A DNA stretch of 64,000 bases from Hormiphora californensis (lineage: Eukaryota; Animalia; Ctenophora): positions 1,240,001-1,304,000 of the forward strand of contig CM035352.1 of NCBI GenBank assembly GCA_020137815.1, given 5' to 3'. The notes beneath the pieces were generated by a model. That model worked only from the letters and a program-made list of their open reading frames with translations. It was not told the origin of the DNA and searched no databases. The position numbers and the translations under genes were made by a program. Shown in pieces: positions 16,174 through 63,163 of this stretch (position 1 is the stretch's first letter; every line of letters begins with the position of its first letter).

Positions 16174-19100
16174 ATGGTGAAAGGGAAACCGAGCAAGGAC
16201 AGGCCCCGATCTTCTGGTGAGTGTCGCACATCTTTTTTATGTTTGTTATCCCTGAACTGCAGCACACACGAAGCCCTTTTGCAGCTAACAGACGAAAGAA
16301 AGCAGGTTCACCTGATGGATCGGATACGCCCATAGAGAATCAGCTGGTCAACCTTGAGAGTTATCAGCAGCCCCCGATAATCGATGTTATACGAGGTCCA
16401 AATGTTGACAGTCTCCAGATTACAGAATCTGACATGAAGTCGGTAAGTATAGCCATCAAATAATCTGTCTTTAACCTTGATGTGAAGTTTACTGATTCGT
16501 CATCTGTATATTTAGCTGCGTCCAGAAAAGAAGCAAGAGATGCCGAGGGAAAAGAAGGTGGTTGAAGTCAGGAAAAAGAAGATGGTTTCCAATGCGCCCA
16601 AGAAAATGTAAGAACTCCAAAGAATGGCTATATCACACTTGTTACTTTCGTAACCCTCGCTTCGCACCGGGCCGGAGGGTCGCGTAATCTGACAATATCA
16701 CACAGGCATATTTTTTCTTCTCCTTCTTATGAGTGCCAGGTTGCATTATATATATGTTTCTATACCTCCTCTATACCTCCTCTAAATATATATTCTCTAC
16801 AGTGTGACTGTACTAAAAAAGGTAGATAAAGAGCTGCCGGATGTTGCTGTTGCCAGTTCTGGTCCGAGATTTACCGGTGATGGAGAGATACTTCCTTACT
16901 CTATCCTGGGATCAGTCAGCGATTACAAACAGGCAACTGCCGCTACAGGCTATACGGTGTGTGCTATTTGTTTTTAACAGCCCATTTATAATTTGTATGT
17001 GAGAGTGTAGCATAGAGTATAACAAGTTTAAGTGCTACTTAAACTTTTTCCGTAGCGTCTAGGCATTAGTTGTTCAACAATATCAAGTAAATATGTCAAA
17101 TTGTGGGCATGCTGTGCCGTTACGTTATTATCATATTTCCTTGCAGGGTCTTATTGACACCGCTGTGTTCCAAGTAAGGGTGTTTGGGAATTTCTCCGTT
17201 ATTTTCAAAAAACAATTGCATGTTGATCGCTGTTGCTGTATCTTTTTAATTCTCTGGATCAGCTGTGTAGGGCTGACCCCTCTACATGTCTTTTGAATTC
17301 TTCAAAAATAACGCCCTTCTTCTCCAACGCTTGCCTTGCTCGACCCTCTCTCTCCGCTGTATTTAAAGAGAGGTTAAAATAATAACAATCCAACGCTTCC
17401 ATTATATATCAAACTAAAACCCCCATTCTCTAGGCGTTATCAAAGGCTCCTCAGCCTGTCTATGTGGAGCCATGTGTACCGGATGAGACAGAGACGAGCA
17501 AGGAGGGTCACGCTCTTCAAAACTGGGAGAAGCAACTTGAAGCAGCACTCTAAACAAATGTCCCAACTGTCCCAACAAGTTGGACGGTCTCCCAGCTTCT
17601 CTCCTGATGAATAGGACCAGGGAGTACAGGATGAAGCAGGAGGAGAGAGGAATCATAGACCGTGCTATACCTGCTCTTGATAGGGGCAAGGGATGTAAGT
17701 TCCGTTTGAGAATATCATTTTATTCGCCATCCAAAAACATATTATAGATAGTACTTGCTACTTATAATAGACCAGTGACCACATATTTGATTTTAGTACT
17801 TGATCATAAAAGCAAGCTGTACGTTGTAGCTGATGAAAGTTTTAAAACTCTCTCTCTCTCAGTCCGGGTTGGAAGTGAGTTCTGGAGTCAGCCTCAGTAC
17901 ATTGGAGATCCTGACTCTGCTGTTGTCATGACACTCAACCGGAGCGAACAGGGCCAATTCCCCGAAATGGAGAAGATCGGGCTACCAAACTGGAGCGGTA
18001 AGAACCCAACCCGGGCCCTTTACACAGGTTCAAGGGGGGTTCAAGACCTCTCTCTCTCTGTAGAAGCCGCCGCATATGCAGCGAGTTTCGTGAAATGATT
18101 AAAAGCGATAGACAAGTTTCCATATATTTTCATAATTCCCCCAAGTGTTTTACAATTTCCCCACAGAAAACATGTCCCAAGGACACATGTACCCATGGAA
18201 GCGGAACAAGTTTTTTGAGAAACGCCGAAAAGAACTTAGTGATGTTATTACAGAACAAGAACCTTTCAATCCGGTCAGTATGAGTTATGTAGTGTGTGAT
18301 GTATGCTATGAGGCTAGGATCAGATAATATTTCTAGAGATCTATCTGAGTATCTAATCCTATAAGTGGAAATGAAAACATGGGAATTACTTCACAAAATG
18401 GCCCTTTTTACCATACTTCCCTGGACTAATTGGACTAATTGGCTAATGAGTCCTCGAACTGTTCTGATATAATTATTGTTTCAGGAGTTTGATGGTCTAT
18501 GTATAGTTGGGAAAAGAGAACTTGCTGAAGCTAAACCGATTACACCTGTTCCCTCTGTTACCCGCACTGACCCGTAAGATTTTCTACCAATAGTTTAGTA
18601 GTTTGTATCCCCTAGTTTGTATCCTGGATCGATTGAGCTCTCTCGTGTGAATCGACTACTCACATTGATCCCCTATCACCTCTCCATATTTCAGACCGAC
18701 AAGACCTGCCACACCCCGGTGCGAGGGAAAGATTGAGACGGGGCCGAAATTAGAAATCAATGGCCAGGAGTGTAAATGGGGAACTGAAGGGTTCGACCCG
18801 ACTGTCGTTAGGATGCTGTTTAGTAGTGATGCTGGATCCATTTCAAACCAACAAATGACACTGAAGAATACTGGCACTACTGCCATCTTCTTTGCGTGGA
18901 AGGTAAGATTTTGGTTACCAAGTAGCAGCTGGGATAACGGTGTTACCAAGGCAACGAATAATACACGATATAGTTTACAGGTTTTACTATCGAGTAACGG
19001 GTTAATTAACCTGTATTTCTAATACATCTCAGTAACTAAACAACAAATGCTATCTAGTGAATATATCAGTAGTAATCCTCATCTTCATTTCCAGTTGATA

Positions 19101-19947
19101 CCAAAAGAAAACAAACTCAATACTATTATGGAGGGAGATAAACAGCGCTTCTATTTTAGCATCAACGATGGTAGGTCACATTTGTCATTAATTGGGATTC
19201 GGGTTGGCAAGGGAGTTACTTGTTGCTTGAGATTTTGTTGCTGTCCCACACACGGTCACACATTTATGTTGACTCCAATCACATGTTCGTAACGCGCGGG
19301 TTCGATTTCAAAGTTAGGACCGCGCGCAATTTACCGGGAACCATAGCAACCTAGTGTACCGTGGGAAAATCACCATTTCACTTTTCAGGTGTGATATTGC
19401 CCGGGCAGGAGTTGAGTGTGCCCTTTATTTTCCTGAGCAAGCAGGCTGGTATCTACACAGAATCTTGGCAGTTTATCAGCAAGCCTGTCCTGAACAATGG
19501 ATCCCCTATTGTGGTGACACTCAAGGGTGTCGCCCTCAAACGAGATCTTTACAAAGAGGAGAAAGAGAAAATCGAGGTAAATTAAGTCTTTGAAATATCT
19601 CATTGTACTGCTTGAGATTGGAAATGTAAGGTATAATTTCTTATTTTGGGATGTGTTTGTCTTTCCTCAACTAATTCCCCCTTCCCAGGCGATGCTTGAG
19701 AAACGTCAGATCCAATATAACATGTCTCTACTTGTGGAAGAGTTGGTTCGTGGTATTCACAGTCCACCTCCACCCGCCCCACCCACTCCCCCTGGTCCCT
19801 CTGTAGAGGAGAGGTTCGCTGATAACAACCCGTACCTTCACTACCAGTCGGATTATTATAGCGAGGCAGAGGCCCTCTGGGCGGAGGTAGCACCAGAGGG
19901 AGGGGCATGGGATGAAACAATGGCATCTCTTAGAAAGGTAACAGATC

Positions 19948-20032
<85 letters not shown>

Positions 20033-21650
20033 TGATGACTAATATTATGTTTAATGGTCCTTGCTGTTAGGCCACCCTCTCACTTGCCTTGTTCTACCCT
20101 GTCTCGCTACAAATGTAAAAGAGGGCAACATCTCACTACAATTCCAGGCTGTACTCGCGGTACCGCTGGAAGAACAGGAGGAGAAATTAGAGAAGTTCAC
20201 TGCTTTGAGAGAGAAAATGACAGAACCAAGGAGAAAGCCAAACTCGAGTGAAGTTTATGATTTGTGGTAAGTATGGCTAATCTTAACCAGCTATGAGCAA
20301 ATCATGATTGACGCTGTTATTTTTTTGTGTTGATAGCCCCCGACAGTTAGCTATTGTACCCCTTTAAACGGGTTAATTTCAGCTACGGGTGTCTGAGAGC
20401 AGCAGTGGATAACTTTGAGATCCAAGACAAGGCTCTCCGAACGGGTCTAGGAATTGGGGAGAGAGTACACATCGAGGAGCCGCCTCCAATTGAGCCGGAT
20501 ACGACATCAGAGAAAACAGGTAGGTACCAGGACATTTTGTGTGCAGTAGTAGGAACTAGATATAGAACATGTGATCTTCTTGTACTTCACTAGCCTTCTC
20601 TCTTCGTAAGCTCACTCCGAGTCAAGACAAAATACACGGGATTGTAAGTTGGAAGCAGCTATTATAATAGTGATGGTTGCTGTGTTATTGTGGTTACCAT
20701 GGTAACACCCTTCTTACTATGGTAACTCTCTCGTTATCATGGTAGCACCCTCGTTACCATGGTAACACCATCGTATGCGTCGTATTCTTGAGCTGGGATA
20801 TCATGGCTTGCTCGTGAACACAGTGAAGCACCTGAATTCTCTTTACATTGTGCTAACTCGCTATCTCTTTGGGTCGTTCACCGTCGCTAATTGGAAGTAT
20901 CGTGTTGGAAATAGCGGTGTAGCAAACCAATTAAAATTAATTAATTTTGGTGGCTAGATTACTAACACCTCTGTAGCATCTGCTCTAATGTCCCCAGCGC
21001 CAGACAGTAAAAAGGGAAAGAAAACTGCAGACGGAGATAAGAAGAAGGATGCTAAAGCAGCCAAGGTATAGTTTAAAGTGTTACTGTAAAATTTTACAAC
21101 TATATAACAACAACTATATAACAACATATAATATTACAACAAATATAGCCAGGCATCATATAAGGAAGAACTTAATGGTAAGCCTATACATTTTATTCGA
21201 CGAATTCTAACGCTCACAACTCAGCGTCTTCAGGATAAGGGGAAGCCTGCTTCAAAGGGTGGTAAGAAGAGTGAAGCAGCGCTCATTCCTGATGATGATG
21301 AACCCGCACCCAGAAAAGATGTAGGTACCCCCATCCCGTATATATACTAGCTTGTCAAGTTTTCGTACTTCAATTCTTATTTGTTAAGCTGTAGCCACTA
21401 ACCATAGTTCTAGGGGAGATCAATCATGCTCCCCTCACTTGTAATTCCTAGCACTTAGCAGAAAATTGTTACTTTTTAGTAGCTGTATATTTCTAATAAA
21501 TTTCATTGCTTTCAGTGGGTGCCTATATCGGATCCAATTCTAAATGCCAAGTATAACGAGAAGTTACACGTCCTACTGAACAACGTCCTGTCGCAGTGTT
21601 TCGATCAAATATCCCTAGCATTGGAAGAGGAAACTGGGAAGAGTTTTTAA
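16174..21650 (+). CDS. MYCBPAP: MYCBP-associated protein (axonemal central-pair protein), about 17 exons
   Basis: Exon peptides LLMNRTREYRMKQEERGIIDRAIPALDRGKG|VRVGSEFWSQPQYIGD..VMTLNRSEQG; LKNTGTTAIFFAWK; QRFYFSIND|GVILPGQELSVPFIFLSKQAGIYTESWQFISKPVL..VTLKGVA; last exon ..LEEETGKSF*. Start inferred as MVKGKPSKDRPRS. Confidence 0.85.
20693..20766. promoter_or_regulatory. Four X-box-like palindromes at a 20-bp period in a MYCBPAP intron
   Basis: GTTACCATGGTAAC (20693 and 20753), CTTACTATGGTAAC and GTTATCATGGTAGC. Confidence 0.5.
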
Positions 21651-21966: not shown

Positions 21967-24900
21967 CTACAGATTAGTTTCAACATACTGTGCCCTGGAC
22001 TTAGTGGGGTGATCTCGGTGTGCTAACGTCCTTACACGAGAAGAAGTGGAGTTGATTGCACCCTGAACTGTTCTAACTGGGGTTCGTATCAGGATGGTAA
22101 ACAGGAAGTTGTCATACAGAAGTGGGTTTATAACAGAGTTGATGGGCAAAATGAGGATAGAGAAGACGGGATACCAAGGCTCGGCATCTATAACTTCACT
22201 ATAATGAAGTGCTGATGTCAGGGCGAGAGGTATCCAGCAGAGAAAGTCAGTGACAATGATGGCAGTGATCTTCCTTTGTACAGAGTGTCTTCTGGATTTG
22301 AAGGAGGCATTAGCAGTTCTAACAGTGTTTATAGATCGCAATGTTGTCCACGCCACTCCAATATAACAAGCTGCAATGATAGTGAAACAGAGGACGTTTA
22401 AAGAGAGAATACCGGCTGAGAATTCCTTCTGGGGGTCAGACTCCGTTACCAGATACTTGAAAACACACACTCCATCATTACCGTAAAAGTGAACAGTCGA
22501 GTTGTGGATACCTGAAACAGAAAAAAAATCTAGATACTGGATTGAATCTGCCGGTTTCAAATTGATTCAAGCATTACCTGAACAGCTGCCAATGCTCTGA
22601 CAGCGATTCTCGAAATGAGAATAGGGTCAGGTCAATGCTCTGACAGCGATTCTCGAAATGAGAATAGGGTCAGGTCAATGCTCTGACAGTGACAGCGATT
22701 CTCGAAATGAGAATAGGGTCAGGTCAATGCTCTGACAGCGATTCTCGAAATGAGAATATAGGTCAATGCTCTGACAGAGTATCGCCCTTACCTCCATACT
22801 GAGTTGTGAACATGTTCCTTGCCATTTCTCTGATAACCCTCCACGATATGATACTATCAGCGGACTTCACTGCCGAGATCCTGCTGTAGTACCGACTGAA
22901 TAGTTCCAGGTGTTTAATCTTTGTCACGGGCCCACTGAATAACGAGGATCCATTGTAGTAGAGACCGTTGACAAAATAATCTTCAAACACAGGGAGAACA
23001 GGAATCACAGCGATTATAACACTGCCAATAATGGGAATGAATGTTAGGATGCCAAGTTTAATAATGGACAAGATACTCCCTCCGTCGGTGTGGATGAGCT
23101 TCCCCACACTAAACACTCGGACAATACTCAGAGCAGTCATGGCGAATATAGACAATTGAGATCCTGTAGTGCTAACAACTCCCAGTACTTGGCATTGCGT
23201 GGACGAGAACCAAGTGAATCTGTCTCTGCAGTAACCTCCAGATCTCCTAAACATTAAATCAAAGACAGAGATAGAGAGCAGATAAATGCCAACCAACAGG
23301 TCACCTAGACAAATCAGAATGATTGCTAGTTTATTGGCAAGGAGTTCGAATGTTCGTCTTTTTATTGGCTTACGAATTGTGACAATCAGTACCAGGAAGT
23401 TGAGAAGTGTGGCCACAGGTCCGACTATGTAGCACACTGCTCTTAGACCATCATTAGCTAATATCTGTTTGTTAGTCACAGGGCAGTTGGCATTACATTC
23501 ATCCGACAAGTCTACACAGTCCACTTGTCCATCGCACACAGAAGAGAGGGGAATTCTTATCCCATGATGTGGTGCACTGGAAATTATTAACACAGTCCGC
23601 CTCATCACTGCCGTCACCACAGTCATCTTTCAGATTACAAAATGTCCCTGTAAAGCACACATTTCTTGTTGTCACACGGGTAATATCCGGTGTTCGTAGG
23701 ATCCCGGCTCTTGGGAGGCTTTAAAGAGGAACCACTAGTTCCGGTGGATATGTGTCTGCTAGTGCGTAGACTCTTTTATTCAGGCATATTCCAGCAAGTT
23801 TCAAGGGGAACGGTCCTGTTTAGAGGACATTCAAGCGTTGTCTGTACAGAGTCCGCTACATGCTGAGTATACATAGTTTTCTCCGTACAGGTATCCACAA
23901 TCAACTGAGTGGAATGGTAGGTTCACATGTACTGACTTGATAACGTTCAGAACTGTTGGAAGTGTAAAGGATGGCTGTTTAACTGTGTGACATGTCCCCA
24001 GCTGTAGTTCTAAAGAAGATGATGGGATGGGGAAGCAGTGCTGGAGAAAGACCTCCTGGTTTGAAGTATTAGTAATAGCTGTATCCACAACCTGGTTATT
24101 TCGCATTGCATTGCAAAGATCCACCTCCACTGGACAGGAACTAATCTTATCACAGAGTTTATCTAACTCAACAAAACCATCATCCCCACCACAGATCAGT
24201 ACATCAGAGCAAATTTGCCCCTCTATCTTTTCTGAGTATCTTGAGTAAACTCCACTGCCACACATTTTCCAGGATGATTCCATCTCGTCTGAACCATCCT
24301 TACAGTCAACCTGACCGTCCATTACCCAAGCAAGGGGCATCGCCAACTCCCTTCCTTTCAGGTCCTGCCGTCTTAGCGAACCTTCGCTCACAGACGAATG
24401 ATTGGGTGAGTCGGCTACACAAATCCGCTGTTTCATCCCCTCCATTTGACAATCACTGACCCCATCACACAACTGGTTCTTGTGAACAGTGCAGCCTGTC
24501 TCGGGCTCAAAACATACGTTATTGTACCCATCATCACAAAGATCATATCCCCTGCAGTGGCCGAGGAAGGAAATGGCTGTGTGGTGTCCTTGGTGTAGGC
24601 AGCTCATAGTGACCCTATCTGGATCAGTACAAGTTTGTTTGATCCTCTCCGTTCTCACAGATTGTTTCCACTCGGTACCAAGGGGCACATCTCGCTCCAT
24701 CTGGCATCACAATTGTGAGTTGTATATCTGATCTGACACAGGTCTGTTTACCACTGTCCACTTCATAGCATCCTACCTCGTCATCTCCCCTCTCGCAATC
24801 TATCCTTCCATCACACAAAGATCTCGGTGGAACTATAGAGTGGAGTCAATTGATCTTTAACACAAAACATACCATAGCTCACGCCATTACACTCTATTTC

Positions 24901-25504
24901 ATCTAAACACTCTTGGGTTAAGCACCGTCCGTCACAGGGCAAATTCTCCTCACGATCATCGCACAATGAACTCATTCACGTTCGTGTTAGAACACCTACC
25001 CTTTTGGCATTTGCTATGAGTCTCAATGTCCTTCCCACTCGACTTTCCACAAATGTATCGTCCACAAAGGAGTGGGGAATTGACCCCAGCCACCCTCCTA
25101 AATGCAGTTGAACCAGCGTGGCCACAAACTTGGTAAAACGCTGGATCGTTGGGGCATACCTCACTATAAAAAGTGTATTCGGCTCTCTCGAAATCAGATG
25201 AAGTATAAAGTTGTTGGGAAGATGGGCATCTGTAGATTGCGCTATTATACGTTGAATCATACCCGCACTGTTCCTTCAGATATCCCCCAACCTCTTCGAT
25301 AGAGCACTCTAGAGTTGGTGTAGGAGTTGGTCTTGGGACGGGTGTTATAGTTGGTCTTGGGACGGGTCTAGTTGGCCTCGGTACGGGTCTAGTTGGCCTC
25401 GGGATGGGTCTAGTTGGCCTCGGGATGGGTCTAGTTGGTGGATCCAGTGCATCACTTGGTGAGCCAGTGACTACTAGGTTTAGGAGAACAAATAGGGAGA
25501 GCAT
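21967..25504 (-). CDS. GRL101/RXFP-related class A GPCR with an LDLa-repeat ectodomain and no LRRs; two exons (intron ~22510-22791); many frameshifts (assembly errors or pseudogene)
   Basis: Signal MLSLFVLLNLVVTGS; (PTRPIPR)n stalk; LDLa modules CDGRIDCERGDDE, CDGVSDC, MDGQVDCKDGSDE and CDGQVDCVDLSDEC; LGR-type 7TM motifs ICLGDLLVGIYL, W.SS.QC.VLG..ST..SQLS, IVTDFLCWIP and LPINSVINPLLY. Confidence 0.85.
22588..22780. repeat. Tandem ~43-bp repeat of a dispersed family (GGTCAATGCTCTGACAGCGATTCTCGAAATGAGAATAGGGTCA)
   Basis: About 4.5 copies in the GPCR intron; related CAATGCTCTGACCAC..TTCTC copies occur at ~2518-2600, ~6140-6235 (reverse) and ~35192-35250. Confidence 0.8.
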
Positions 25505-26025
25505 CGACCTAGAAAAAGAATGTTGCCTAGTTTTGTGGTTTACATGTGTACATCCGTGTGTTACAGAAGCCAATTTATAGCAAAAAAAAGAAGAATTATC
25601 ATCGGGAGAACGGAGTCTATTACTACTGCATAACACAATGGTGTTTGTTACACTGTAGGGAAATTATACTGCTGTCTAAAACTGAGATGCTAAACCACTC
25701 TGAAGAACAATCGCGTTGTCCTACTAATGAAAGATGTTCAATGAACATCCTAGTCCAGATAACCACTCGTTTTCCAATCTTTAAGTGTAAGTGGACTCGT
25801 TTTCCTGGCATACTATGCCGCATAGCTACACTCAATGCATGGCCTTATTCTCTGAATTCCTACATCGAATATAGCACCGTACTTGGCTCGATATTATAGA
25901 GAGAACACTGCACTTCTTGCACATTACCCCATCATATTGCTGCTGCACTATTTGACATGTACCATTCTTAGCGTTATCCATTACTCTCTGCAATCCTGGC
26001 TCGGTTCGGGAGCACTCTGGACACC

Positions 26026-29000
26026 ATGGACCCCCGGAGACAGAGCTCTGACATGGACCCCCGGAGACAGAGCTCCGACATGGATCCACGGAGACAGAGC
26101 TCCGACATGGATCCCCGGAGACAGAGCTCTGCCTCAGCTACCTCTTTAGCCTCCAGATTCTCCAATATGTACAACAGAACACGGTCCACTTCCTACACTG
26201 CAGAAACCTTCTTTATTCGCCGCTGTGCAAAGTTCGTCCCTCATTCAATTGACGAGGACTGCGTAGAGGAGAACCGATATTACACCAGACAGAGTTTTAA
26301 GGGGGACACCTGTGTGAACTGTAGGGGAACCCGGAAATCTCATCCTGGGAGGAAGGCTAACCCTGCTGACATTCCAACTAACGCTTTCGGGGAGTTACAT
26401 TTCGGTAACGACATGGACAACTTCAGTGCGCTACCCTACTACATTCGTTTAGACTCAGAAACAGATAAGAAGCTAATCGCTAAGTTAGTCGTTGACAAAT
26501 GGGCCATTCCTCACCCGTATCTGATAATTTCCTTTATCGGAGGCCCTGATTCCTCTGAATTCAGTCTGGCTGCTAGGGAGATGATAAAGAGTGTGACCGA
26601 TGAGCTGTTGAAGGGAGCTCGGACTACTAAAACCTGGTTCATTACAGATGGAATGGACCGAGGTGTTGGACAGCTCATCGGGAGGGCAGCAGGGAAACAG
26701 AGAAACTTCCTGGAATCCATTCCCATTATTGGTCTGGGAGCATGGGCCCTGACCACTAACAACAGAGCTCTTATTGAGTGCAAGAAGCCTGGTAGTGGGT
26801 GTTTCCCAGCGGATTACGAGGGGGAGGTATGTGAGTTCCCGAGATGTGAGAACAAGGCTGCACTTGAGCGGCACCACACTCACTTTATACTGTTTGACGA
26901 TGGCCGAATGCACAGTTCTACCTCTGAGTTTATGAAGGCCAGGTTTAATGTAGAGTTGGCGATATCACACTACAAACGAGTTCGACTTGTGACACTTCTT
27001 GTTGGCGGGGATGAGATCAACTTGAAAGAAGTTAGGGATCGTGTTTCGAAGGGGACGCTGGTTGTCCTGATCAAAGGTACTGGTGGTATAACAGATGTTC
27101 TCTGCTGGTCCTTGGATCTTGTAGAAGCGGAAGAGGTGGAGGAGCTGGAGCAGTATCTTAGGAAGACATACCCCGGTGAGGATAACTTGAAGACACGGAA
27201 TACAATACTCTACATTCTGGACAAGGCGACATTTCTTATCCAGTGCCGGGGGGTTGATTCTCAGATAGATGAGGTTATCCTGTCTGGGTTGAGGAAGATA
27301 TCACGCGATGGGATGGGAGAGGACGGGGGTACAGTCTGGAGGGTATACGATCAGTTACTGTTGGGGCTAACCTGGGATGCGGTTGAGAATGACGATGACT
27401 GGCAAGTGTTGAAGAGTTATAACTTTGCTGAGTGTGGAAACTATTCAATGACAAGGTTGATATCTCAGGCTCTACAACTGAACAGGGTTGAGTTTATCAG
27501 GAGGGCAATTCATTTCAAAGCGTACACCAAGAAAATGTTGACAGAAGAAATGTTTGAAGAGATTCTAAACAGCACAAAGACACACTCTTTTCTCCGGAGG
27601 ATTCTCTCGGAGACCAAACGGTGGTATAAATCTATGAAGAAACCAATCATGATGGCAAGTTATATACAGCTAGACGGTAAACCAGGAACGACTGAAGAAG
27701 ATGCTCCTCTTGACAATGATCCGATTAAATACTCTTTTGAAACGTTCGCCTTGACGATTGATTATCTCTGCGATGGAATCTTTAACGGCTGGTCCACGTC
27801 AAATCAAGTAAGAAAAACAGATCATTGTGAGTGTATTTCACGTGTCAACAGGTGTTTGTGCCTCTGTTTTTCAACTTCATACAAATGTGTCAAATAAAAC
27901 GTTTTGACCAACAGCTGGGGGCATTTCTCTAGGGTCATTTCTCTGGGGGGGGGGGGGGGAAGGTCATTGGTACCACCAAATATCAAGTACCACGGCCCAT
28001 TCCACCAAACATCACCCTATCAGGGAGCATCAGGGTCCAGGAGATCAGACGTCCCTCCAAAACCCAGACATCCTACTGATCCTACTATGTGTCCTGGAGC
28101 AGCGTACATCAGATGGCCCTGTTACTTTGGGAGGAGAACAGAAGCCCGATGATGGTAGCACTCCTGTGTAGTCACATCTATAAGTGGATGGCAAGGAAGG
28201 AGAGTAAATACGTGGAGATAACACCTGACATGAGGACCAGCTTGTTGGATAATGCCTTGTAAGTTTGGGTGCCCGTGTTGAGCATCACGATAATGGGGAT
28301 CTCAGAGAGATAGAGATAGTGTGGTTGAACATTATATTTTGCAGGGAGTTTGAAAAGTTAGCGTATGGTCTGCTGCATGAAGCAAATGAGGATTACCCCA
28401 CTCGATCTGTGGAGCTCCTTCTGACACACCCTCACTTTGACTCGTGTGATAAGACACTCCTTCAGGTACAGGGTTACCATGACAACAAGTTCCAACCTCT
28501 CGTGAGAGAGGGTGAGCCGGGAGGGGGAGGTTAGATAGAAGGATATAGATAGGAGAGTCTACTCCCTATAATATATGGGTTATACACAATCTCTCCCTAC
28601 TCTCTGTCAACCTATTACACCAGCTCTTTTCCAACCTATGTGATCCCAACTTCCAACTCTCCTGGCAGGTAGCGGATTACACGGGATCTGATCTGTTCCT
28701 CTCCCACGACGCTGTACAGGACTACCTCACTCGTGAGTGGATGGGTCTACTGGATGACGATGTTCAGACCATCCAGATTCTAGCAGCCCTACCATTTCCC
28801 CTGTTAGCGCGGTTCAGGAAGGTACCAAATCTTAGAAACCAGGTGACAATTGACCAAGAACAGACGACAGTCAACATAAAGGTACTAACAGACATACACA
28901 CACACACCGATTATCTACACAGTTGCCACGGGAACAATTGTCATGTTTGCTCGTTATCTCCACATTTACTCGTTAACTCCACATGGCCGCCTTGTTGAGT

Positions 29001-31033
29001 AAGGCATGCAGGACTAGGGAGAAATGCTGTCCTGTATAATTAGTGTAAAGGGAAATGACATACCTACACAGTATATAATACACACCATCATCTCTCCTTT
29101 CAGAGACGTCGGGATAGGTTCATGGGAAAGTTTAGTAATGTAAAGGTGAAGTACGTTCATCTTGGACCGCTTCAGAAAATCTGGCATTTCTACCACGCCC
29201 CCATCGTTAAGTTTTACTTCTTCCTAATCACATACTTATTATTCTTGACCACCTTTGCGTATGCGCTGCTGATGGAGCATCCCATAAAGTCCCGGACATC
29301 AAACTCAGAGCTCTGTGTTTACACCTGGGTCCTCTCTACTATACCCCTAGAGATCAGACAGGTAAATTCTCACTCAATATTTTACACGAACTATAATATA
29401 TTCTCTCGGCTTGCCTTGCTCGTCAACTGAGCTGTGTCTCATGGTGCCGCTAGATCCCGTGTGACCGTCAGACAGATTAGAACCATCTCTTGTTTCAGAT
29501 TTACAAAACATGTCCGAGTAGATTTTACAGCAAGTTAAAATGCTACTTCAAGAATTCATACAACCGGTATGATGTTTTGTGCCTGCTATTCGTTCTACTC
29601 TCCATCGCCTGCCGTTACTTTATTCCATACCTCAGGTGGGTTGCCCGTTATAGTAACCATAGTAACCATAGTAACCATAGTAACCATAGTAACCATAGTA
29701 ACCATAGTAATCATAGTAACCATAGTAACCATAGTAATCATAGTAACCAAAGGTGGGTGTAATAGTAACTATAGGTACAACATCACATCAGTCAAGTTGA
29801 TATTTTCAGTGGTAAAATCTTGTTCTCTCAGTAACAATAAGTTCTTCTGTTTTAGGACCGGTATCAATATGATTGATATTTTACATCCAAGAGACCTCCC
29901 ACCACCCCCCGTTGAAGAGGCATTCTACAGAATATTCTTTTCCATTGCTTTTGCTCTATCTTGTGTCAGACTCCTGCAAAACATGCAAATTCATAGCAAT
30001 GTTGGACCAAAGGTTTGAACTGTGGCAGCTTCTCTGCTGCAATATTTCTCATATAATATGTCTCACTCATTTTTGCCAAATTTCGACCCCCTCCCCCCGA
30101 TTCCACTGGATGTCTGTATTAATTACTCCCCCTTTCAGGTTGTAATGGCAGCCTCCATGGTAGTGGATTTGTTGTTCTTCATGGGATTCCTTATCATGTC
30201 CATAATCTGCTATGGGGTGTCAACTGAGAGTCTCATAAACCCGACAAAGGAAAACAAGTCGGGTGCTTTCAATTCGGTCAGTTTTAATTCGGGTACTTTC
30301 AATTCGGTCAGTTTCAATTCGGGTACTTTCAATTCGGTCAGTTTCAATTCGGGTACTTTCAATTCGGGTACTTTAAATTCGGGTACTTTCAATTCGGTCA
30401 GTTTCAATTCGGTTGGTTTCAATTCGGGTACTTTCAATTCGGTCAGTTTCAATTCGGGTACTTTCAATTCGGTCAGTTTCAATTCGGTTGATTTAAAAAA
30501 ACGTGTTGGAATAGTATCTAATGCATGGATTGGGAACACAAAACAGATCAGCTATTTTCTAGAGATACCAATTCAGTTATTGATTCGTTTGTTTCCGCAG
30601 ATATTCGATATATTCTGGAGACCCTATATTAACATCTTGGGAGAGCTAAATCTGGATAGTTTACAAGGAAAACTAAACATTGGTTATTGCAAGCTAGCCA
30701 TGATCTACAATACAACACTGGACTGTACGGACGCAAGAGAGAACTATCACTGCACCAAGGATCCTTACTGCAACTACAACAGGTTCGAGTTCAGTCATGA
30801 AACTTCGACTGAGATAAATTAGACACGACAGTTTGAGTTTGACTATTATATTCTTCTTGTGGTCAGTATATGTACACTTCAAATTCTGATCTCTTACTAC
30901 TGCAGGTATGTGATATACATAGCGATGGCAGTTTATATGATGCTGGTAGCTGTGATGATGATAAACCTTTTAGTGGCCGTCTTCACCTACACATACGATC
31001 AGATTAACTCAATATCTGCACGGGTAACATTCC

Positions 31034-31068
<35 letters not shown>

Positions 31069-31723
31069 AGCTCTAGATCTCTGTCTGTCCTTCTTGCTTT
31101 CTGTCTGTCTCTCAATATATCTGTATCTCATATATAGGTTTGGAAGTGGCAGAGATATGAGTTGATCACAGAATTTAAAGACAGAAGCGCCATCCCAATG
31201 CCGCTCAACTGTATCTACCTGTGTATTCTAGCCGTGATATGGGTCTTTCGAAAATGTAAACCCAAACAAAAGCAAGGTATGATAACAGCATCAGTTACTG
31301 TTATTATTATGACAGTTATTAGTATATTATGACATGACAGTTATTAGTATATTATGAAAGTTATTGTAACGAATTTATCATAGTTCTTCTAGAACAAGTA
31401 ACCATGCTAAGTTGATAATAAGTTATTTAAATCATGTTCTCCTGCAGTGAGTAGAGCAGTTGGCGTTGAAGAGGAACTAACGATAATAGAGACGGAGTGC
31501 CGGAGAAATCTGCTCACTAAAACTGACTGCTACGAACAGTGTTCGGAATACTGGGGAGGGGATACATCGGATGCAAGCACAGTTAACAGAGTGTGTGAAG
31601 GCTGTAGAGAGGTTAACAGAGAAGGTGGAAGGGTTAGTGGTGGCGGCTAACAATGCTAACAGATCCCCAACTCCCATTCACGATTCTCTGCTTCGATTAA
31701 GGAACCGAAAGGCTTCAGTGTAA
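26026..31723 (+). CDS. TRPM: TRPM-family cation channel (about 11 exons) with no NUDT9-H or kinase tail
   Basis: MHR motifs PTNAFGELHF, YIRLDSETD, W.IPHPYLIISFIGG, WFITDG, PIIGLGAW and HHTHFILFDDG; FYHAPIVKF; MINLLVAVFTYTY; TRP box VWKWQRYELITEF; C-terminal coiled coil IHRMQAQLTECVKAVERLTEKVEGL. Single-base frameshifts at ~28106 and ~31520. Confidence 0.92.
29650..29749. repeat. (AGTAACCAT)11 microsatellite in a TRPM intron
   Basis: Read directly; translates as the spurious SNH and IVT repeat ORFs. Confidence 0.95.
30262..30490. repeat. 15-bp-unit tandem repeat (AATTCGGTCAGTTTC / AATTCGGGTACTTTC) spanning a TRPM 5' splice site
   Basis: About 15 units, six of which contain AATTCG|GTCAGT. Confidence 0.95.
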
Positions 31724-39559: not shown

Positions 39560-40800
39560 TTAAAGGGGTTTTCTTTTTTAAGTTTCCCCCCGTCTTTTTC
39601 ATCCCTCCCTTTTGTAAAGTCATACCAAGCTCCCCGGAGGAGAGAGAGAAAGGGGAAGAGGAAGAGAGAGAGAGAGAGAAGAAGAGGGAGAGAGAGGGAA
39701 GGAGAAAGAGAGAGGAGAAGAGAAAGGAAGGGAAGGGAAAGAGGAGAGAGGAAAGAGGAAAAATGAGAGGAAAAAGAAAAAGGAGGGAGAGAGAGAAGAA
39801 GAGAGGGGGGCCCCCCGGGGTTTTTAAAAAAAAAAAGGGAACTTTTTTTTTTTTTTTGGGGGTTTTAAAAAAATTTTTTAAAAAAATTTTTTTTTTCCCC
39901 CTTTTTTTTCCCCAAAAAAATTTTTTTTAAAAGGAAAAATTTTTTTTTTAAAAAAGGAAAAGAGGGCCCGGGGGAAGAGGGGGAAAAAAAAGGGGGTTTT
40001 TAAAAAAGGGGGTTTTTTGGGGCCCTTTGGGTTGTTTAAAAAAAAAACCAAAGGGACGGGGGGAAAAAGAGGGGGGGGGAAAAAAAAGGGGAGAAAAAAG
40101 GGGAGAAGGGGGGAAAAAGAAAAAAGGGGGGGTTTTCCCCCCCCCCCCCCCCCGGGACGGGAAAAAAAAGGGCCCAACCCCCCAAGGGGAAAAAAACCCC
40201 CCCCCAAAAAAAAATTTTGGGTTCCCAATTTCCCCCCCAAAAAAAAGGGGGGGGGGTTTTGTTTTTTAAAACCCCCCCCCCCCCGGGGGGGGCCCCCCCC
40301 CCAAAAGGAAAAGGGGGAAAAAAAAGGGGGGGAAAAAGAGGGAAAGGAGAGGGAAAAAAAAAGGGGGGGAGAGGGGGGGGGGGGGGGAGAGAGGGGGGGG
40401 GGGAGGGGAAAAAAGGGGGGAGAGAGAGAGGGGGAAAGAAAAGGGGAGAGAGAGAGAGAGAGAGGGGGGGTTTTTGGGGCCCCCCCCTTTTCCCTTCCTT
40501 TTTTCCCCGGGTTCTCTCTATCCTCCCTTTTTTTGGGGTTTTTATAAACCCTTTTTATTTTTTTCCCCCTTTTTTAAAAAAGGGGAAAAAAGGTGAGATA
40601 TGAACCGGAAATGGCTTCCATATTTTCACCCATTTTAGATATTTTTACATTAAAAACCCGGGTTTTTAGAAAAAATAAAATCTAGCTCCCTAAATGGAAA
40701 ACCAGGAATATTTAGGCCTTTTTACTTTTTCACCCGAAAGGGGGCAAGACGTACCCATTTAATTTACAAAAAATTTGGGCCCCTAAATCTACATAAAAAC
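39560..40800. other. Low-quality, homopolymer-expanded sequence (probable consensus artefact)
   Basis: Runs of A/T/G/C dominate and yield K/G/P/F-only ORFs next to GA tracts. Confidence 0.85.
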
Positions 40801-41591: not shown

Positions 41592-42434
41592 CTAGCAGCC
41601 TGTAAACTACATTTAATCATTATAACAGTCGATATATTTTTCAAGCCACCCAGTACATATTATCACTGATGTAATCAGTTTCTCTATTTGAAAAAAAGTT
41701 TTTAATTTATTAGTATTATCCGTGGTTTCCTTGTTAATACTATTTTTATTTCCTTTTTTGTTCATGGATTTGTATTTTGAGTTCCCGATTATTTAGTAAA
41801 CTGTTTCAAAGGCTCAGTGTTATCACATTTTAGTACAGCCCCTGATATTCCTTGATAATGGCGGATGGTAATTAAGTGTGTAAAGCATGATATGTGAGCC
41901 CTGGGTTTTCAAGCACGATAAATGCCAATTGCGATGTTTGGTTTAGGATTTTACAGCATGCAATCAGTCCAATCACAGATATAGCTGCAATAGTGGAGAG
42001 GCCTGAGGCATGGGCCATGACCTCCCCTCTTCCATTTTCTGCCCATTATATCAGGATATGTCCCATAGAATATCTCGTTAGCCGAACTTTTCTATCCAGC
42101 TTCCTGATATTGCCAATTACATTATCATATCCACAGCATATAGAAGCTAACCGAGTCTATTACACACCTCTCCGCTTGTAATGCTGTTAGTAGCATTCTG
42201 GTTTGTTCTGGCTGTGTTCCGTTGAGCCGTCGTATAACTTAGTGTGAGTTTAGATGTCCTTATTATAGCTCTGAAGGGAATCAGAAAGTAACGGAAAAGT
42301 ATAAAAAATAGTTAACATATTATGACACATATGTTGCTAAAACCGTGTGTATTCAGAGTGCCCAACAATAATCTAACACCATGCTGCATCACACATTGTT
42401 TAATTCATTGTTTAATTCCTGTTCAACATTGCAG

Positions 42435-44730
42435 TACAGTTACGGAGGAGGAATCAGGACCAAGAAGAGAAGCCTATGAGTATGGCGGAGAGGATGAGTA
42501 TGTTTGAAGGTGCCAAGTCGAATGGAGGTGGTGGTGGAGGTGGTGATGGGGCCAGGAAATCGTGGAGATCAGCCGCACCACCCATGGTAATTTGTGATTA
42601 TTGATGTTGTACGTTTCTTGAGGACCTGGGTTTAGAAGTTCAGGCAAGAGTTTCAAAATCCGAGGCAGTTATATACCCTGATTAGTAGGGAGTTGATTTG
42701 TTGCCCTAGATTCTCAATTCTGTAATCTGTTTACTGTTTAGAAAACTGCAAACATGCGTACCAGTTTTGTGTGTGTGTGTGCTAATATAAAGAGATAGAG
42801 CTGTCAGCATACAATTAACAGTTCCAATTCTGAGTCAAAAATCCGGCCCTTGAGTGCAGCACACACAGAAGATACTGAATTTTAGTGTAAATTCCTCCTT
42901 TGTAGAGAGGGAGAGAGAGAGAGAGAAAATTTTAAATTCGTCTGTACCAAGAGTTGCCTTGAGTAGGGAGAAGTGCGAAACTAGACAAGTTAAAATGTTC
43001 ATGTCGTCCAACAGCTCACACTTCTCTAGGTAAAACTAAGCAACGATGATGAGGGTGACAAGAACGAAGGGGAGAAGCAATCCTTCAGGAAAACTGTTCC
43101 ACCCAACATGTATTCTCAACAGCAGATCTCGTCAGCCGGGGCTCCCACTACAAACGGCAATAAGAGCACCTACAGCGGTATTTCCAAACTGAAGACTGCT
43201 GTTAGTGGAATGACAGCTGCTATGGAAACGGAGCGATCACATCGAGGACTGTAAGTACCCTTTTTAGATATCAGATCTTTTGTTAGACAACCAAATTTCT
43301 ATTTATTATGGGGGATATTGTACTCTGAGAGGTCTAGGTGATCAGTTATATTTCCATCGCCTGGCGGTTCCATCGCTCCGTGCCATATGTTACGAGCCCT
43401 ATTAGGTCATATGAAACTGGTGTAGAACATAGGCCACACACATATAATTATAGAGAGATAGGTACCAGTGTCATTATGTGCGGTTATGTTAAATTCCGCT
43501 GTTTCTGCCAAGTATAGCAGTATTTACCAGTATAGTACCGCGAGAGAGAGACTGAGGGGTGAGGAAGAGAGAGATAAAGAGTGAGAGAGACTGAGAAACG
43601 AAGAGAGAGAGAATCTATCCATTAAAAAGAGACGCATTGATGCTATTCTTGGAAAGACAGACAAAGTTAATTGACATATTTACTGGTATAAATTCAGTCA
43701 TTTTCTAAAAAATTGAAACATGGTACATAATATGTGGAAAGACGTTGCCTTGTTCGACTCTATCTCACCGCACCCCGGTTAGAAGGGTTAGAACATAGAA
43801 CCAGAACTGAGAACCACACCTCTCTTTCCTAGCATTGACCCGGGCCAGTGGACCCTCTCTGTGCTGGACATGCCAGGCAATGACATTGGTCAGCTAGCGG
43901 ATACTCTCCGGCCCTTACCCAGACCCCACTCACGACCACCCAAAACAGACACAATACACCTCCCATCACGGCCTGACTCAAGGTGCCATTCCCGCTCTGA
44001 TTCACGGTGTCAGTCCCGCTCTGATTCACGGTGTCAGTCTAGAGGTGCAGATTTGTTGCATCCCCCATCCAGGGAAACACGACCACCATCACCCTACGAA
44101 ACATATCACTCCACGTCTGGTCCAACCCGGGTGATACCACCACGAACGATAACACCACTGAGCACCAGCCGACTCACCTACAGCCCCTCCTCACCTCCCC
44201 TGGGGGATCTAATCTACATCCCCAGCAGGACACCATCACCTCAACACCGTGTAGCAGATCAATCACCCTGCCCCTCCCCTTGGCCCAATGAAGAGAGGTC
44301 CCAGGAGCTCGGGAAACCATCATCCTATCTCTTTGCAAACACTCCCACCCCTGATATATTCGAGATACCGCCCACACCAGAGAAAACTCCCTCTCCCACG
44401 ATTTACAGGAAGACTCGACCACCGGGACGAAGATCTCCTGCGAAGTACCGGCTGTTGGCAGATCGGTCCCCTCTTCAGGATATGACATACCAGGGTAACC
44501 ATGGTAACCAAGGCAACCATGGCAACCAGGATAACCATGGTAACCATGGTAACCATCAGACTGGTATAAAGAGGGCCGGAGAGGACGTTAGAGAAGAGTG
44601 GATGCCCCGGCAGGTACCGACCCCTTGTGCGGATGAGCAATGGACTGAGTTTGATAGTGATGGTGAGGGTTTCAGGACAGCAATGACCACTCCTGAAGAG
44701 GGTGCTTGGTGGGGTCCGGGATCCTTGTAG
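42435..44730 (+). CDS. Low-complexity Pro/Ser-rich coding exons (42435-42586, 43030-43250, 43833-~44700); probably upstream exons of the smoothelin-like gene, or a separate gene
   Basis: Phase-compatible joins ..PMSMAERMSMFEGAKS..APPM|VKLSNDDEGDK..HRGL|IDPGQWTLSVLDMPGND..; the join to 45170 is not resolved. Confidence 0.6.
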
Positions 44731-45000
44731 AGGGTGCTTGGTGGGGCCTGGGATCCTTGTAGAGGGTGCCTGGCAACAATATGTATTTATTCAGTCACAC
44801 ATACAGTCTTACATTCACACAAACTCACACAGCTACACACACTCACACACTCACACAAACTCACACACAAACTCATGGACATGCAGTGCTATTTAGACAT
44901 GATATATCTTTGGTAGTCGGTTTAAGCAATTCCATAGTAACCGAGCTAGTACTGTACAAAGAGAGCTGAACGTTCAGCCTTTAATGATGTAATTATAGCT

Positions 45001-45093
<93 letters not shown>

Positions 45094-45169
45094 TTGCTTT
45101 ATTGTACCCCCTTTACATCGCACTTCCTTGTTTCTCTGTCCTAGTCCTCCTCGTATAAGTATAGTGTAG

Positions 45170-48100
45170 ATGGATTGGCAAGGATTGCTCTGCCTTGTTC
45201 TTGCAGCATTGATTACCATCATGACCTTTGCCGAAAGGTATTGGAACGCCAGACGACGGGGCGGTGGAGGTGGAGGTGATAAGATAGACGAGTTATTGGT
45301 GCAGAATTTGGAGACATTTGACCAGACATCCCGTCACAACTCACAACAACACACAACCACTAATCATGATCAAGTAATGAGAGATGAGTTCGCTGTGGAA
45401 TCTGAGAGGATATTGGACAATGTGGGTAGAATGTTCGATCAACAACTCAAACAATCAGAGGATTTATTTGCTGCTCGATCGAAAGATATTTGTACTGCAC
45501 TTGATAGGATTGATTCTCTCAACATTAAAGATGAAAACAAGGAGTTTTTAGCGCAGGAGATTGTCAATCGTGATCACTATGAGAACCCTCTGGAGCCCAA
45601 AAAGTATTCGTGTCAGCCGAATAAGCTGGATATAAACACTGAAAAACACTCGGCACTCAGGGGTCTAATGAAGAAACGGCACGAGTTTTCTAAAGCAACG
45701 CCAGCCATTACGAACCAAAGCGAACACAGACCAACTCGATTCTTCCCGAAAAAGAACATCCCTCCCCGGGATGTTGTGAAGGGTGAGACTGTTGACCGTT
45801 ACGCCACCTTTAAACGGGGTTCTATGTCTCCCCAGGAGAAGATAATGGCTAATATTAGGAACCTCAGGGAGGGTGGGGGGTGATAGGGGTGATGAGGACA
45901 ACACCTTGGTCCTTCCCTCCCAAGCTAAACTAGCCATGTATGCCCCAGAGGAGAGGGAGGAGCCACTAAATCGTCCCCGGGGCATCTTCACCCCGAAACT
46001 CCTCCGCAACCCTGTTAAGGAGGCACCGAGGCCCATGTTGCTACAGGAAAACAGCAAACCAGCTCCTTTCACCTACATGAACCCTGGGGCACCATTAGCA
46101 GAACTGGGGGATATCAAGGCTCACAAAAAGCTGGCTAGTATCTCCGAGAAAACGGCCCAAAAAGAACCAAAGATGCAGAGAGGCTCAGTGAAGGACTTGG
46201 CAGCACTGTTTAGTAACAGCGCTAGTAGTTCCCCGAGTGAGGGTGACAGAGTGAGGTATGAGGCTGTGAGGCACACCCTGGATCTCAACAGATCGGATCT
46301 GACCTGCACAACCCGGTATACAGACAACACTGACAGGGATATAGACACCTCTATTATGGATGATACCGCTGATGGGGATATGTTAAATGGAGGGTTCCGA
46401 TCCCCACCTCCACCCTCCACCCTTCTCAGCCACCACCACACTGTAATTCACAGCGAGGATGAAGAAGAGGAATGTGATTCTTCTAGTGCTAGTCTTTCCC
46501 GGGCTGTATCCCCAGTCAGAAAGACTAGCAGAATGAAATTGTACAAGTCCAGCAAACGTAGTGCTGGGAAACCTTTTAACAGTAGACCTAGTGAGTATCT
46601 GGCGCAGCAGCAAGAGGAGGAGGAGGAATCAGAGGCTATGACAGGAGCTTACAGGAAAGATCAGGGCTCAACACCAAGAAAAGAAGATATATCCCCTGTA
46701 CGGAGAGATATATCGCCTGTTAGGAGAGTCCTATCACCTGTTAAACAAACTAGAGATTCCTGGCAACCTAGGAACCAGGATAATTCACCAGGTAGAGAAG
46801 ATTGTTCATTACCTAGAACCCAACAAAGAAAGGATGTGTCACCGGTGAGAACAGTACTACGAGATAGATCTCCCTTGAAAAACCAGACAAGACAGATCTC
46901 TCCCCCTCGACAGCAGCACCGCTCATCACTAGGCAACAAGGAACTCTCGTCACTAGGCAACAAGGAACTCTCGTCACTAGGCAACAAGGAACTCTCGTCA
47001 CTAGGCAACAAGGAACTCTCGTCACTAGGCAACAAGGAACTCTCGTCACTAGGCAACAAGGAACTCTCATCACTAGGCAACAAGGAACTCTCGTCACTAG
47101 GCAACAAGGAACTCTCATCACCACCCCGGTATTTGAAGGATCAGGGTGAGCCTAATCTCAGCTCTCCACCCCGTTATAAGGGGACCCAGAACTCTCATCC
47201 ACGGTACGGTGACTCAGAGATCAAGGATGATATATCTCAGGATCAGGAACTCAGGGCAAGTTCCAGTACGTCTCTCAAAGAGAATGACAACTCTCAGCTA
47301 CCTCTCAGTATTACCGAGTATCAGAAACTGTTTACAGAGAAACAGAAACAGAAACAGGGACAGGATAAACCGGTTGTTCGGAGGTTTGGTACGGCTCGGT
47401 CACAGTTTCACACCTCCACCACCACACCATCATCCAATGACACCTCGGGGTCTGGTCAAATGTACATCCCTGGCGAATAGAGGGTGAGCAGCTATTATAC
47501 TGCTACACTGCTACACTGCTACACTGCTACACTGCTATATGATGATTACTGATACTATGAAATGGCATAAAAGGCTCAGTGTACATTACAGCTCAGCTAC
47601 TGCTACTTATTTAGCTACCCGCCTTATTTCAGTTACACAGCTCATTTTCTACAAAACTATAATTGGCTACAGCTTTCTCTCCTTGAACTTCAACATTTCT
47701 TCACGTAGCCCATAATACACCCATATAACTAACTATATTACCTCTATTTCTAATCTATATCCCCTCATTTCAGGGCCCCAAAACCGCCTGGTGGTGGCGC
47801 CTTTGTAGGGTTGGTCAACCAGATAGCCCCCAAGAACCCAGTGGGAAGGGCCAAGTCTGCACCCGCTAAAAATAGTGCTGCCTCCAAGAAAGCCGCCCTA
47901 CTTCACTGGTGCCAGCGTATGGTCAGCGATAAAGAGGTAACTGTTATTGAGCATTAGACTCTTCGAATGATACATCTTGGTCTATAATATTATGGGCCTG
48001 CTTATAAATATTTTCTGTATCTGTTGTCGCTGAGGGAGGTGGACACTGGGAGGTGGACACTGGGAGGTGTGCTGAGAAGTGAGTTGGGAGGGTCTGACTA

Positions 48101-49668: not shown

Positions 49669-50113
49669 TGCGTGTTGCGGCTAATGATGAGTGTGTGTGA
49701 CGAGAACTATTGAGTGAGAGTGAGAGTAGATATTGATTCAGATACTGTCAAAATATGACCCGATTTCTGGGCGTTAATAGATGCTGTCATGTTGTGCATC
49801 AAGAGATTTCTTAAAGTATAGCTACAAAAATTGTGAATATGTAATTTATTAAATAAGTTTTAGACTTATTCAATAATAAGTTTGGCATGTGCATCAAATT
49901 TATTATTTATTTGCTGCATCTCATGCTTTTACAGCTGCTGTAGCTTAGCAAGCGTCAAACTCAAGAATTATATTAGTTCCCTGGTCCTACAAAAATGATA
50001 TTAACTTGTAAATTGAGTTAATTGAAAGAGCTATTTGTAAATTGTTGACTGAAGTTTTCTAAGGTGAAACCGATGTGTTTGATTTATTTTATTTAATTGT
50101 TTACACACAGCTG

Positions 50114-50230
50114 TCACACGCTTTTTAGCTCCAAATTTTGACGTTTTTGGTCATACCCCTATTTCTTGACCAAATCGTGTTATGTTTTAAATCTTAAAAA
50201 CGTCAAAATTTGACGCTAAAAAGTGTGTGA
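50114..50230. repeat. 35-bp imperfect inverted repeat upstream of PITPNM (MITE-like)
   Basis: TCACACGCTTTTTAGCTCCAAATTTTGACGTTTTT ... AAAAACGTCAAAATTTGACGCTAAAAAGTGTGTGA. Confidence 0.65.
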
Positions 50231-50771
50231 ACTTTCCAGCGCTGAAATTAGCTGCGCGCAAATATTTCTCGCGCAACAAAAACGAATCGACCGCGGCCGC
50301 GCCGCGCTGTAGAAAACAAATTTTGCGGAATAAAATCCGATCCAAAAATCTTTGGAATTTTGGAACTTCTTTTTCGCAAAGTCGTTTTCCGAGTTTAAGG
50401 AATACTGTTTCAAAGTTGTTGACTGTTGCTGAGTAACCTTAGCAGTCAAACAAATTAAGAATTGATACACCATCATCCTATTGGTCTGATCCTAGAATTT
50501 AGCAGTTATCAGAACAATGCGACTTGCGAGCGGCTAAGGCCTAACCGTCTGGCGTCTGGCGCTCACTATCCGCTCACTATCCCGGAGTCCGGACAGTAAT
50601 CATCAGACAGTAGACGCTAGATAGTAAAAAGTCACAAATGAATCTTGAATCGTTTCAGTTCACAAATCTTGATCTTAGTCAGACATGATTTGTCGTCCGA
50701 TTGCTCGATATTTGCTTTTTTTGCTAATTCTCACACATGACTTATAGTTGTTTATAGTAGTCTGATGGATC

Positions 50772-63163
<12,392 letters not shown>

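What the first reader, a model, noticed from the sequence alone, without database searches (positions are those of the whole stretch)
30262..30600. Six in-frame splice donors and a stop-free intron in the TRPM pore turret
Seen: the donor after S5 (..KSGAFNS|gtcagt, intron 30277-30600) is tandemly amplified. AATTCG|GTCAGT starts at 30271, 30301, 30331, 30391, 30436 and 30466, all multiples of 15 nt apart. The whole 324-nt intron is also in frame without stops. Inference: donor choice could add 10-65 aa (108 if retained) between S5 and the pore helix, giving repeat-driven isoforms of the outer pore. Established precedent: alternative donors in the TRPM3 pore loop change selectivity.
Basis: partly seen in the sequence, partly recalled or inferred. 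Interest (0 to 1): 0.7.

Follow-up and report, generated by a model that had tools for sequence, protein, structure and literature searches.

The report
Splice-donor minisatellite in comb-jelly TRPM
In a comb-jelly ion-channel gene, a 15-base repeat has copied the end of one exon and its splice signal several times into the next intron, a kind of repeat already known from lancelets and the human F7 gene, and splicing likely uses only the first signal, so the channel's outer pore would keep its normal length.

Summary
In detail: six identical donors lie in a 15-nt array at 30255-30489, all in frame, and the 324-nt intron is stop-free. The gene is a TRPM of a pleurobrachiid ctenophore. The array is built from the exon tail plus its donor: a junction-spanning 'mirage' minisatellite, as in amphioxus globins/Adh3 and human F7 IVS7 and ABCA7; the scan noted this repeat type before on other DNA of this genome. 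The isoform reading is weakly supported. The Pleurobrachia bachei orthologue model has exactly the first-donor length and no repeat; this S5-to-pore-helix linker is length-constrained (26 residues in 58 of 72 homologues, 29 here), unlike the post-filter loop where TRPM3 is spliced; seven out-of-frame donor look-alikes are interleaved; 28% of simulated donor duplications are in frame and open. No RNA of this species was available, so donor use is untested. As assembled, the gene has a frameshift at about 28106, likely a sequencing error. Best reading: first donor dominates, array tolerated (0.62). A real 10-65-residue pentapeptide insert remains possible (about 0.25). Interest 0.2.

The parts
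26026..31650 (+). TRPM-family channel gene, 12 modelled exons (exon 1 26026-27807, 594 codons, SLOG/MHR; S1-S6 and TRP box in 29104-31276)
   Evidence: Pfam LSDAT_euk, TRPM2, Ion_trans; P. bachei P0003 77-92% identical over seven matched stretches; P0003 matches TRPM5/4/2/3 structures; intron model
30139..30276 (+). Exon with S4-S5 linker and S5; its last 21 nt are the first units of the array
30255..30489 (+). 15-nt minisatellite, 16 units of two types: exon-tail type (one native, seven copies) and donor type (six identical in the donor, two degenerate)
30277..30282 (+). First donor GTCAGT; gives the orthologue-length linker (29 residues); inferred to be the working donor
30307..30477 (+). 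Five identical in-frame donor copies (30307, 30337, 30397, 30442, 30472; +10, 20, 40, 55, 65 residues), each with 19 nt of exact context shared with the first
30293..30463 (+). Seven out-of-frame donor look-alikes CGG|GTACTT, predicted to be mostly base-paired
30277..30600 (+). Intron, 324 nt from the first donor, 129 nt from the last; stop-free in the exon frame
30490..30600 (+). Non-repeat remainder of the intron with A7 run and the single strong acceptor at 30600
30601..30782 (+). Exon with pore helix, filter and the long post-filter loop
28100..28110 (+). One-base frame break in exon 2 (MHR4) as assembled; 4 nt stand for one residue of the homologues
   Evidence: P0010, P0011, P0159; P0004
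29636..29855 (+). S3-S4 intron of the same gene with a 9-nt array and a second, in-frame AG|GTGGGT at 29753 (+39 residues, stop-free up to it)

Best explanation
A 15-nt minisatellite spans the exon-intron border after S5 of a ctenophore TRPM gene and repeats the exon tail and its donor into the intron; it likely arose by slippage or unequal crossing-over, and splicing likely uses the first donor almost alone, so the array would be a tolerated 'mirage' and the pore would keep its normal linker. Shown: the array's two unit types are copies of the exon tail and of the donor; the first donor gives the orthologue's length; the last donor would leave a 129-nt intron, the size of this gene's short introns, so the array accounts for the extra 195 nt. 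Inferred: the 30-nt stretch across the junction already had a 15-nt internal likeness, which seeded the expansion; the spliceosome takes the most upstream donor as in F7; rare use of a downstream in-frame copy would give an open-frame but probably poorly functional subunit, and rare use of an out-of-frame copy a stop; an in-frame unit is either luck (about 1 in 4) or what survives selection.
For: Orthologue model P0003 (P. bachei) has 29 residues and no repeat, as the first-donor form; four further close homologues have 27. The linker is 26 in 58 of 72 homologues, 33 or more in 3 of 72, 39 or more in 1 of 72; the smallest insert would make 39, the largest 94. Precedents: F7 IVS7, five to nine identical donors, only the most upstream used, in-frame copies silent (PMC1557585, abstract and Discussion); amphioxus mirages do not disturb regular splicing (PMC3087553 and PMC3902484 passages); ABCA7 canonical donor is the first unit (PMC5954066 passages). 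The window is full of short arrays (37 with period 7 or more). In-frame and open is common.
Against: No RNA tests it. P0003 is a gene model with errors elsewhere (skips exons 2-3, last exon out of frame), and comes from a species that need not have the array. With two strong identical donors more than 45 nt apart, HeLa splicing goes almost wholly to the downstream one (PMC3413131 passages). The first donor is predicted less open (0.45 unpaired) than the five copies (0.59-0.63) at 37 C. The last donor leaves an intron of the gene's usual short size (129 nt; others 86-137 for the five shortest). A second intron of the same gene also has an in-frame, open second donor. ABCA7 shows that second-unit donors can be used. 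All mechanistic precedents are from chordates.
Confidence: 0.62

Rival explanations
1. Several donors are used at appreciable levels, giving a ladder of subunits with 10-65 extra residues between S5 and the pore helix.
For: Six identical donors with 19 nt of shared context, all in frame and open; in-frame copies are predicted open while the out-of-frame look-alikes are predicted paired (0.17-0.28 unpaired); TRPM3 uses two donors in its pore loop (PMC9290681); ABCA7 uses a second-unit donor at some level.
Against: Linker length is constrained; orthologue model lacks any insert; F7's in-frame copies are silent; TRPM3's insert is in the other loop; frame and openness are common by chance.
Confidence: 0.15
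2. The last donor (30472) dominates by proximity to the acceptor, so the array is in effect a coding expansion and the main protein carries a 65-residue pentapeptide repeat on the outer pore.
For: Intron-proximal rule for strong duplicated donors (PMC3413131); 129-nt intron fits the gene's short introns; shorter-intron preference under intron definition (recalled, no call); the same gene tolerates a coding 27-nt repeat at its N-terminus; the translated repeat scores below cut-off against Pentapeptide_4 (26.2 of 38 bits) and is modelled as periodic strands (pLDDT 60-71 over the repeat).
Against: A 94-residue linker is outside all 72 homologues (largest 49); adjacent donors are only 30-60 nt apart and match U1 at 6 of 9, not the strong-site case; natural arrays of this kind use the first donor.
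Confidence: 0.1
3. The gene or this allele is dead, so the array grew without constraint and donor choice has no effect.
For: Frame break at about 28106 upstream of all membrane segments; probably a second one near 28038 (exon 2 is 235 nt where a length of 2 mod 3 is needed); repeats in two introns and exon 1.
Against: Exon 1 is open for 594 codons and the ten downstream exons splice into one open frame of 541 residues; 77-92% identity to P. bachei; the neighbouring receptor gene shows frame steps of the same +1 kind, which fits extra-base errors of the assembly.
Confidence: 0.1
4. The array's length or the intron's frame is an assembly artefact.
For: Local one-base errors; A7 run in the tail; a low-quality-looking stretch at 39800-40600.
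Against: The 16 units are all exactly 15 nt and form an ordered mosaic of two types with few variants, which errors would not produce.
Confidence: 0.03

Closest known systems
Amphioxus 'mirage' minisatellites (Adh3, globins BflGb6/BflGb9, troponin C, PGBD5); PMC3087553 and PMC3902484, passages read
   Same: Head-to-tail repeats that span an exon-intron boundary and carry copies of the splice signal; unit size within the 10-72 bp given for Adh3.
   Different: Ctenophore, not cephalochordate; two alternating unit types; all exact donor copies in frame in a stop-free intron; regular splicing and length polymorphism, reported for amphioxus, are untested here.
Human F7 IVS7 37-bp VNTR; PMC1557585, abstract and Discussion read
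   Same: First unit spans the exon-intron junction; five to nine identical donors face one acceptor.
   Different: 37-nt unit puts most copies out of frame; here 15 nt keeps them in frame. First-donor use is shown for F7, only inferred here.
Human ABCA7 intron 18 25-bp VNTR; PMC5954066, passages read
   Same: Array begins at the donor; every unit starts with GT.
   Different: Use of the second unit is documented and frameshifts; here it would be in frame and is not documented.
Mouse TRPM3 alpha1/alpha2 pore-loop splicing; PMC9290681, passages read
   Same: Alternative donors that lengthen an extracellular pore segment of a TRPM channel.
   Different: Two non-repeated donors, 12 residues, inserted after QID in the post-filter loop, with read counts and electrophysiology; here the pre-pore-helix linker, repeat-made donors, no transcript evidence.

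Membership tests
Mirage / junction-spanning minisatellite | Head-to-tail repeat whose first unit(s) span an exon-intron boundary | tested here: met
   Array starts 22 nt inside the exon and runs 213 nt into the intron
Mirage / junction-spanning minisatellite | Units carry copies of the splice signal and flanking exon sequence | tested here: met
   Five copies share 11 nt upstream and 8 nt downstream of the junction exactly
Mirage / junction-spanning minisatellite | Copy number varies between alleles or species | tested here: inconclusive
   P. bachei protein model has no repeat, but no second DNA copy of the intron could be fetched
Mirage / junction-spanning minisatellite | Regular splicing at the authentic site is kept | not testable with these tools
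   No RNA run covering the gene was listed
TRPM channel family | SLOG/MHR N-terminus, six-helix channel domain, TRP box | tested here: met
   Pfam LSDAT_euk 5e-30, TRPM2 4e-05 (below cut-off), Ion_trans 0.014 (below cut-off); orthologue model matches TRPM5/4/2 at 1e-33 or better
TRPM channel family | Intact reading frame | tested here: inconclusive
   One clear one-base break in exon 2 as assembled; error or null not decided
TRPM3-type pore-loop alternative splicing | Insert lies in the post-filter loop after QID | tested here: not met
   This intron lies before the pore helix
TRPM3-type pore-loop alternative splicing | Both donors seen in transcripts | not testable with these tools
   No RNA of the species
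Pentapeptide-repeat beta-helix (if translated) | Pfam gathering score or a significant fold match | tested here: not met
   Pentapeptide_4 26.2 of 38, Pentapeptide_2 21.7 of 26.4, LD_SV2 15.9 of 29 bits; no Foldseek PDB match at E 0.001 for a low-confidence model

The most novel reading that the evidence does not exclude
Ctenophore splicing does use the downstream copies (the last one, or several), so a junction minisatellite has grafted a length-variable pentapeptide beta-solenoid of 10-65 residues onto the outer pore of a TRPM channel, with a second repeat-made insert of 39 residues (ten N-glycosylation sequons) available in the S3-S4 loop: repeat copy number would tune an ion channel's outer face.
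Probability: 0.22. Interest if true: 0.62.

Novelty: new member of a known kind. Interest (0 to 1): 0.2.

Why it matters
If the best reading holds it is one more mirage: a small natural test of how a non-bilaterian spliceosome chooses among identical donors (first-site scanning versus proximity), made cleaner than F7 because all exact copies are in frame and so would not be removed by nonsense-mediated decay (recalled mechanism). If downstream donors are used, it would show a minisatellite creating a new extracellular repeat domain in a channel pore in one step.

Tried and rejected
RNA evidence: no RNA holder listed; the one added run X1 did not cover the junction and, laid on 41600-53900, gave only pieces of roughly 75-90% identity on coding exons, so it is not this species; no evidence either way. 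Whole genome not held. Metagenome contigs: 320 pattern matches, none confirmed. Protein search for a transcript-derived product with or without the repeat: 5 hits among 7997 scored, two TRPM fragments with a 27-residue linker and three unrelated repeat proteins; none from this gene. Search among proteins of 1092-3115 residues found none. An earlier donor at 30263 was rejected: out of frame with 30601. Exact junction echoes of 9 nt or more at the other 21 junctions of the gene: none; the S3-S4 echo is 8 nt. The idea from earlier notes that copies differ from the exon by silent changes does not fit here: the exon-tail copies differ by an amino-acid-changing base. Single-sequence fold of the retained-intron form: mean pLDDT 53.9, pTM 0.31, no PDB match at E 0.001; not used as support. 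Literature: 'TRPM'+'outer pore'+'pentapeptide repeat' 0 papers; 'ctenophore'+'TRPM' 18 papers, 15 listed, none on this locus by title or abstract start; ctenophore splicing search 5 papers, listing only; PMC8527503 passages gave nothing on junction repeats. Supplements of the cited papers were not read.

Full report
Observation. The six AATTCG|GTCAGT copies are at the stated places, and 30277-30600 is 324 nt with no stop in the exon frame. They belong to one array, period 15, 15.7 copies, 30255-30489. In coding register the 16 units are of two types: an exon-tail type (the native last full unit of the exon and seven copies) and a donor type (six with GTCAGT, two degenerate at 30412 and 30487). 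So the array is the 30 nt across the junction, repeated as a mosaic of its two 15-nt halves. The exon-tail copies carry CGG|GTACTT, out of frame, seven times; these match the recalled U1 consensus at 6 of 9 positions, as the in-frame six do, and the gene's own eleven donors match at 5 to 8 of 9.

The gene and the organism. Exon 1 (26026-27807) carries the TRPM SLOG domain. Its only close relatives among 7993 scored candidates were P0003 and P0004 at 86-87% identity, both Pleurobrachia bachei models in EukProt; the window is therefore from a close pleurobrachiid relative (inference). P0003 maps on seven exons at 77-92% (one stretch spanning an intron scores 57%) and matches TRPM5, TRPM4, TRPM2 and TRPM3 structures. 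P0003 is an imperfect model: it skips exons 2-3 and reads its last exon out of frame.

Which donor fits the protein. From the S5 glycine to the pore-helix proline the first donor gives 29 residues. P0003 has 29 and no repeat; P0008, P0010, P0161 and P0162 have 27. Of 153 proteins fetched by then, 108 were longer than 700 residues, 92 aligned, and 72 covered 95% of the membrane region; in these the span is 26 in 58, 33 or more in 3, at most 49. The loop from the filter to S6 ranges from 31 to 68 in the same 72. The second donor would give 39, the last 94, retention 137. TRPM3's 12-residue insert comes from two donors at the end of exon 24 and lies directly after QID (PMC9290681, passages); QID follows the pore helix and filter (P0136).

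Is the frame more than chance? Not much. Of 37 non-redundant arrays of period 7 or more (low-complexity ones and 39800-40700 left out), 16 have a period divisible by 3. Of 7722 simulated donor-spanning units of 10-45 nt at the gene's 11 donors, 2706 are in frame and 2159 of these are stop-free. The 105-nt tail is stop-free in 10% of 5000 dinucleotide shuffles and in 89 of 587 overlapping stretches of the other introns; the whole intron shuffled is open in 2.8%. Seven of 11 modelled introns have lengths divisible by 3, and only this one is open.

Known kind. Earlier notes of this scan pointed to amphioxus mirages and F7; I checked the papers. Mirages are tandem repeats spanning exon-intron boundaries, 10-72 bp at Adh3, and the authors' RT-PCR suggests they do not disturb regular splicing (PMC3087553, passages; PMC3902484, one passage). 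In human F7 five to nine identical donors face one acceptor and only the most upstream is used, also where copies would keep the frame (PMC1557585, abstract and Discussion). In ABCA7 the first unit holds the canonical donor and a second-unit donor gives a frameshifted isoform (PMC5954066, passages). Against this, two strong identical donors more than 45 nt apart splice almost wholly to the downstream one in HeLa systems (PMC3413131, passages).

Results against my reading. The last donor leaves 129 nt, like the gene's short introns (86, 114, 123, 126, 137); this also follows if the array simply lengthened an ordinary intron. RNA folding puts the first donor at 0.45 unpaired, the five copies at 0.59-0.63 and the out-of-frame sites at 0.17-0.28 (37 C), which would favour the in-frame copies. 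The S3-S4 intron has a second AG|GTGGGT at 29753, in frame, open, behind a 9-nt array, adding 39 residues with ten sequons. The translated array resembles pentapeptide repeats below cut-off, and a single-sequence model of the retained form shows periodic strands at pLDDT 60-71, overall 53.9, with no PDB match at E 0.001.

A caveat on the gene. In exon 2 the homologues P0010, P0011 and P0159 align in one frame to 28105 and in another from 28110, 4 nt for one residue. The neighbouring LDLa-containing receptor gene shows motif halves 43-46 nt apart in frames that step by +1, while exon 1 (594 codons) and a LINE frame (1139 codons) are open. I read these as extra-base assembly errors (inference); a null allele is not excluded. 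They also weaken the exact 324-nt figure.

RNA. No RNA holder was listed; run X1 does not cover the gene and looks like a more distant ctenophore. Donor use is untested.

Verdict. A real, ordinary junction-spanning minisatellite. First donor dominant 0.62; several donors used 0.15; last donor dominant 0.10; gene dead 0.10; artefact 0.03. New member of a known kind; interest 0.2, about 0.6 if inserts prove to be expressed.

Noticed in passing
window 29636-29855: S3-S4 intron of the same TRPM: 9-nt array (11 copies) followed by a second in-frame AG|GTGGGT at 29753; use would add 39 residues of (SNH)n with ten N-glycosylation sequons and leave a 103-nt intron.
   Followed up: partly
window 28024-28258: TRPM exon 2 has one clear and one probable extra base, shortly downstream of a run of 15 G (27945-27959).
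   Followed up: partly
window 27915-27949: A 14-nt unit ending in TAG is present about twice in intron 1, resembling a duplicated acceptor.
   Followed up: no
window 26025-26129: Coding 27-nt repeat (about 4 copies) at the TRPM N-terminus; the P. bachei models have about two.
   Followed up: partly
window 21970-25663 (minus strand): LDLa-repeat rhodopsin-family receptor gene with several +1 frame steps inside its large exons; a 43-nt array lies at 22590-22777.
   Followed up: partly
window 10954-14370: Intact 1139-codon endonuclease/reverse-transcriptase frame of a LINE (identified by eye), preceded by a 484-codon frame at 9534-10985 with no Pfam hit.
   Followed up: no
window 39800-40600: Runs of single bases that look like low-quality raw read sequence.
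   Followed up: no
window 3263-3544, 4218-4505, 17541-20039, 49085-49665, 50766-60771, 63628-63999: Neighbouring genes by Pfam: DUF4470, TPR, MYCBPAP, CH domain, phosphatidylinositol transfer protein, another 7TM receptor.
   Followed up: no
window 20693, 29650, 44489, 62329: Arrays built on the same GTAACCAT/GTTACCATGGTAAC motif recur across the window.
   Followed up: no
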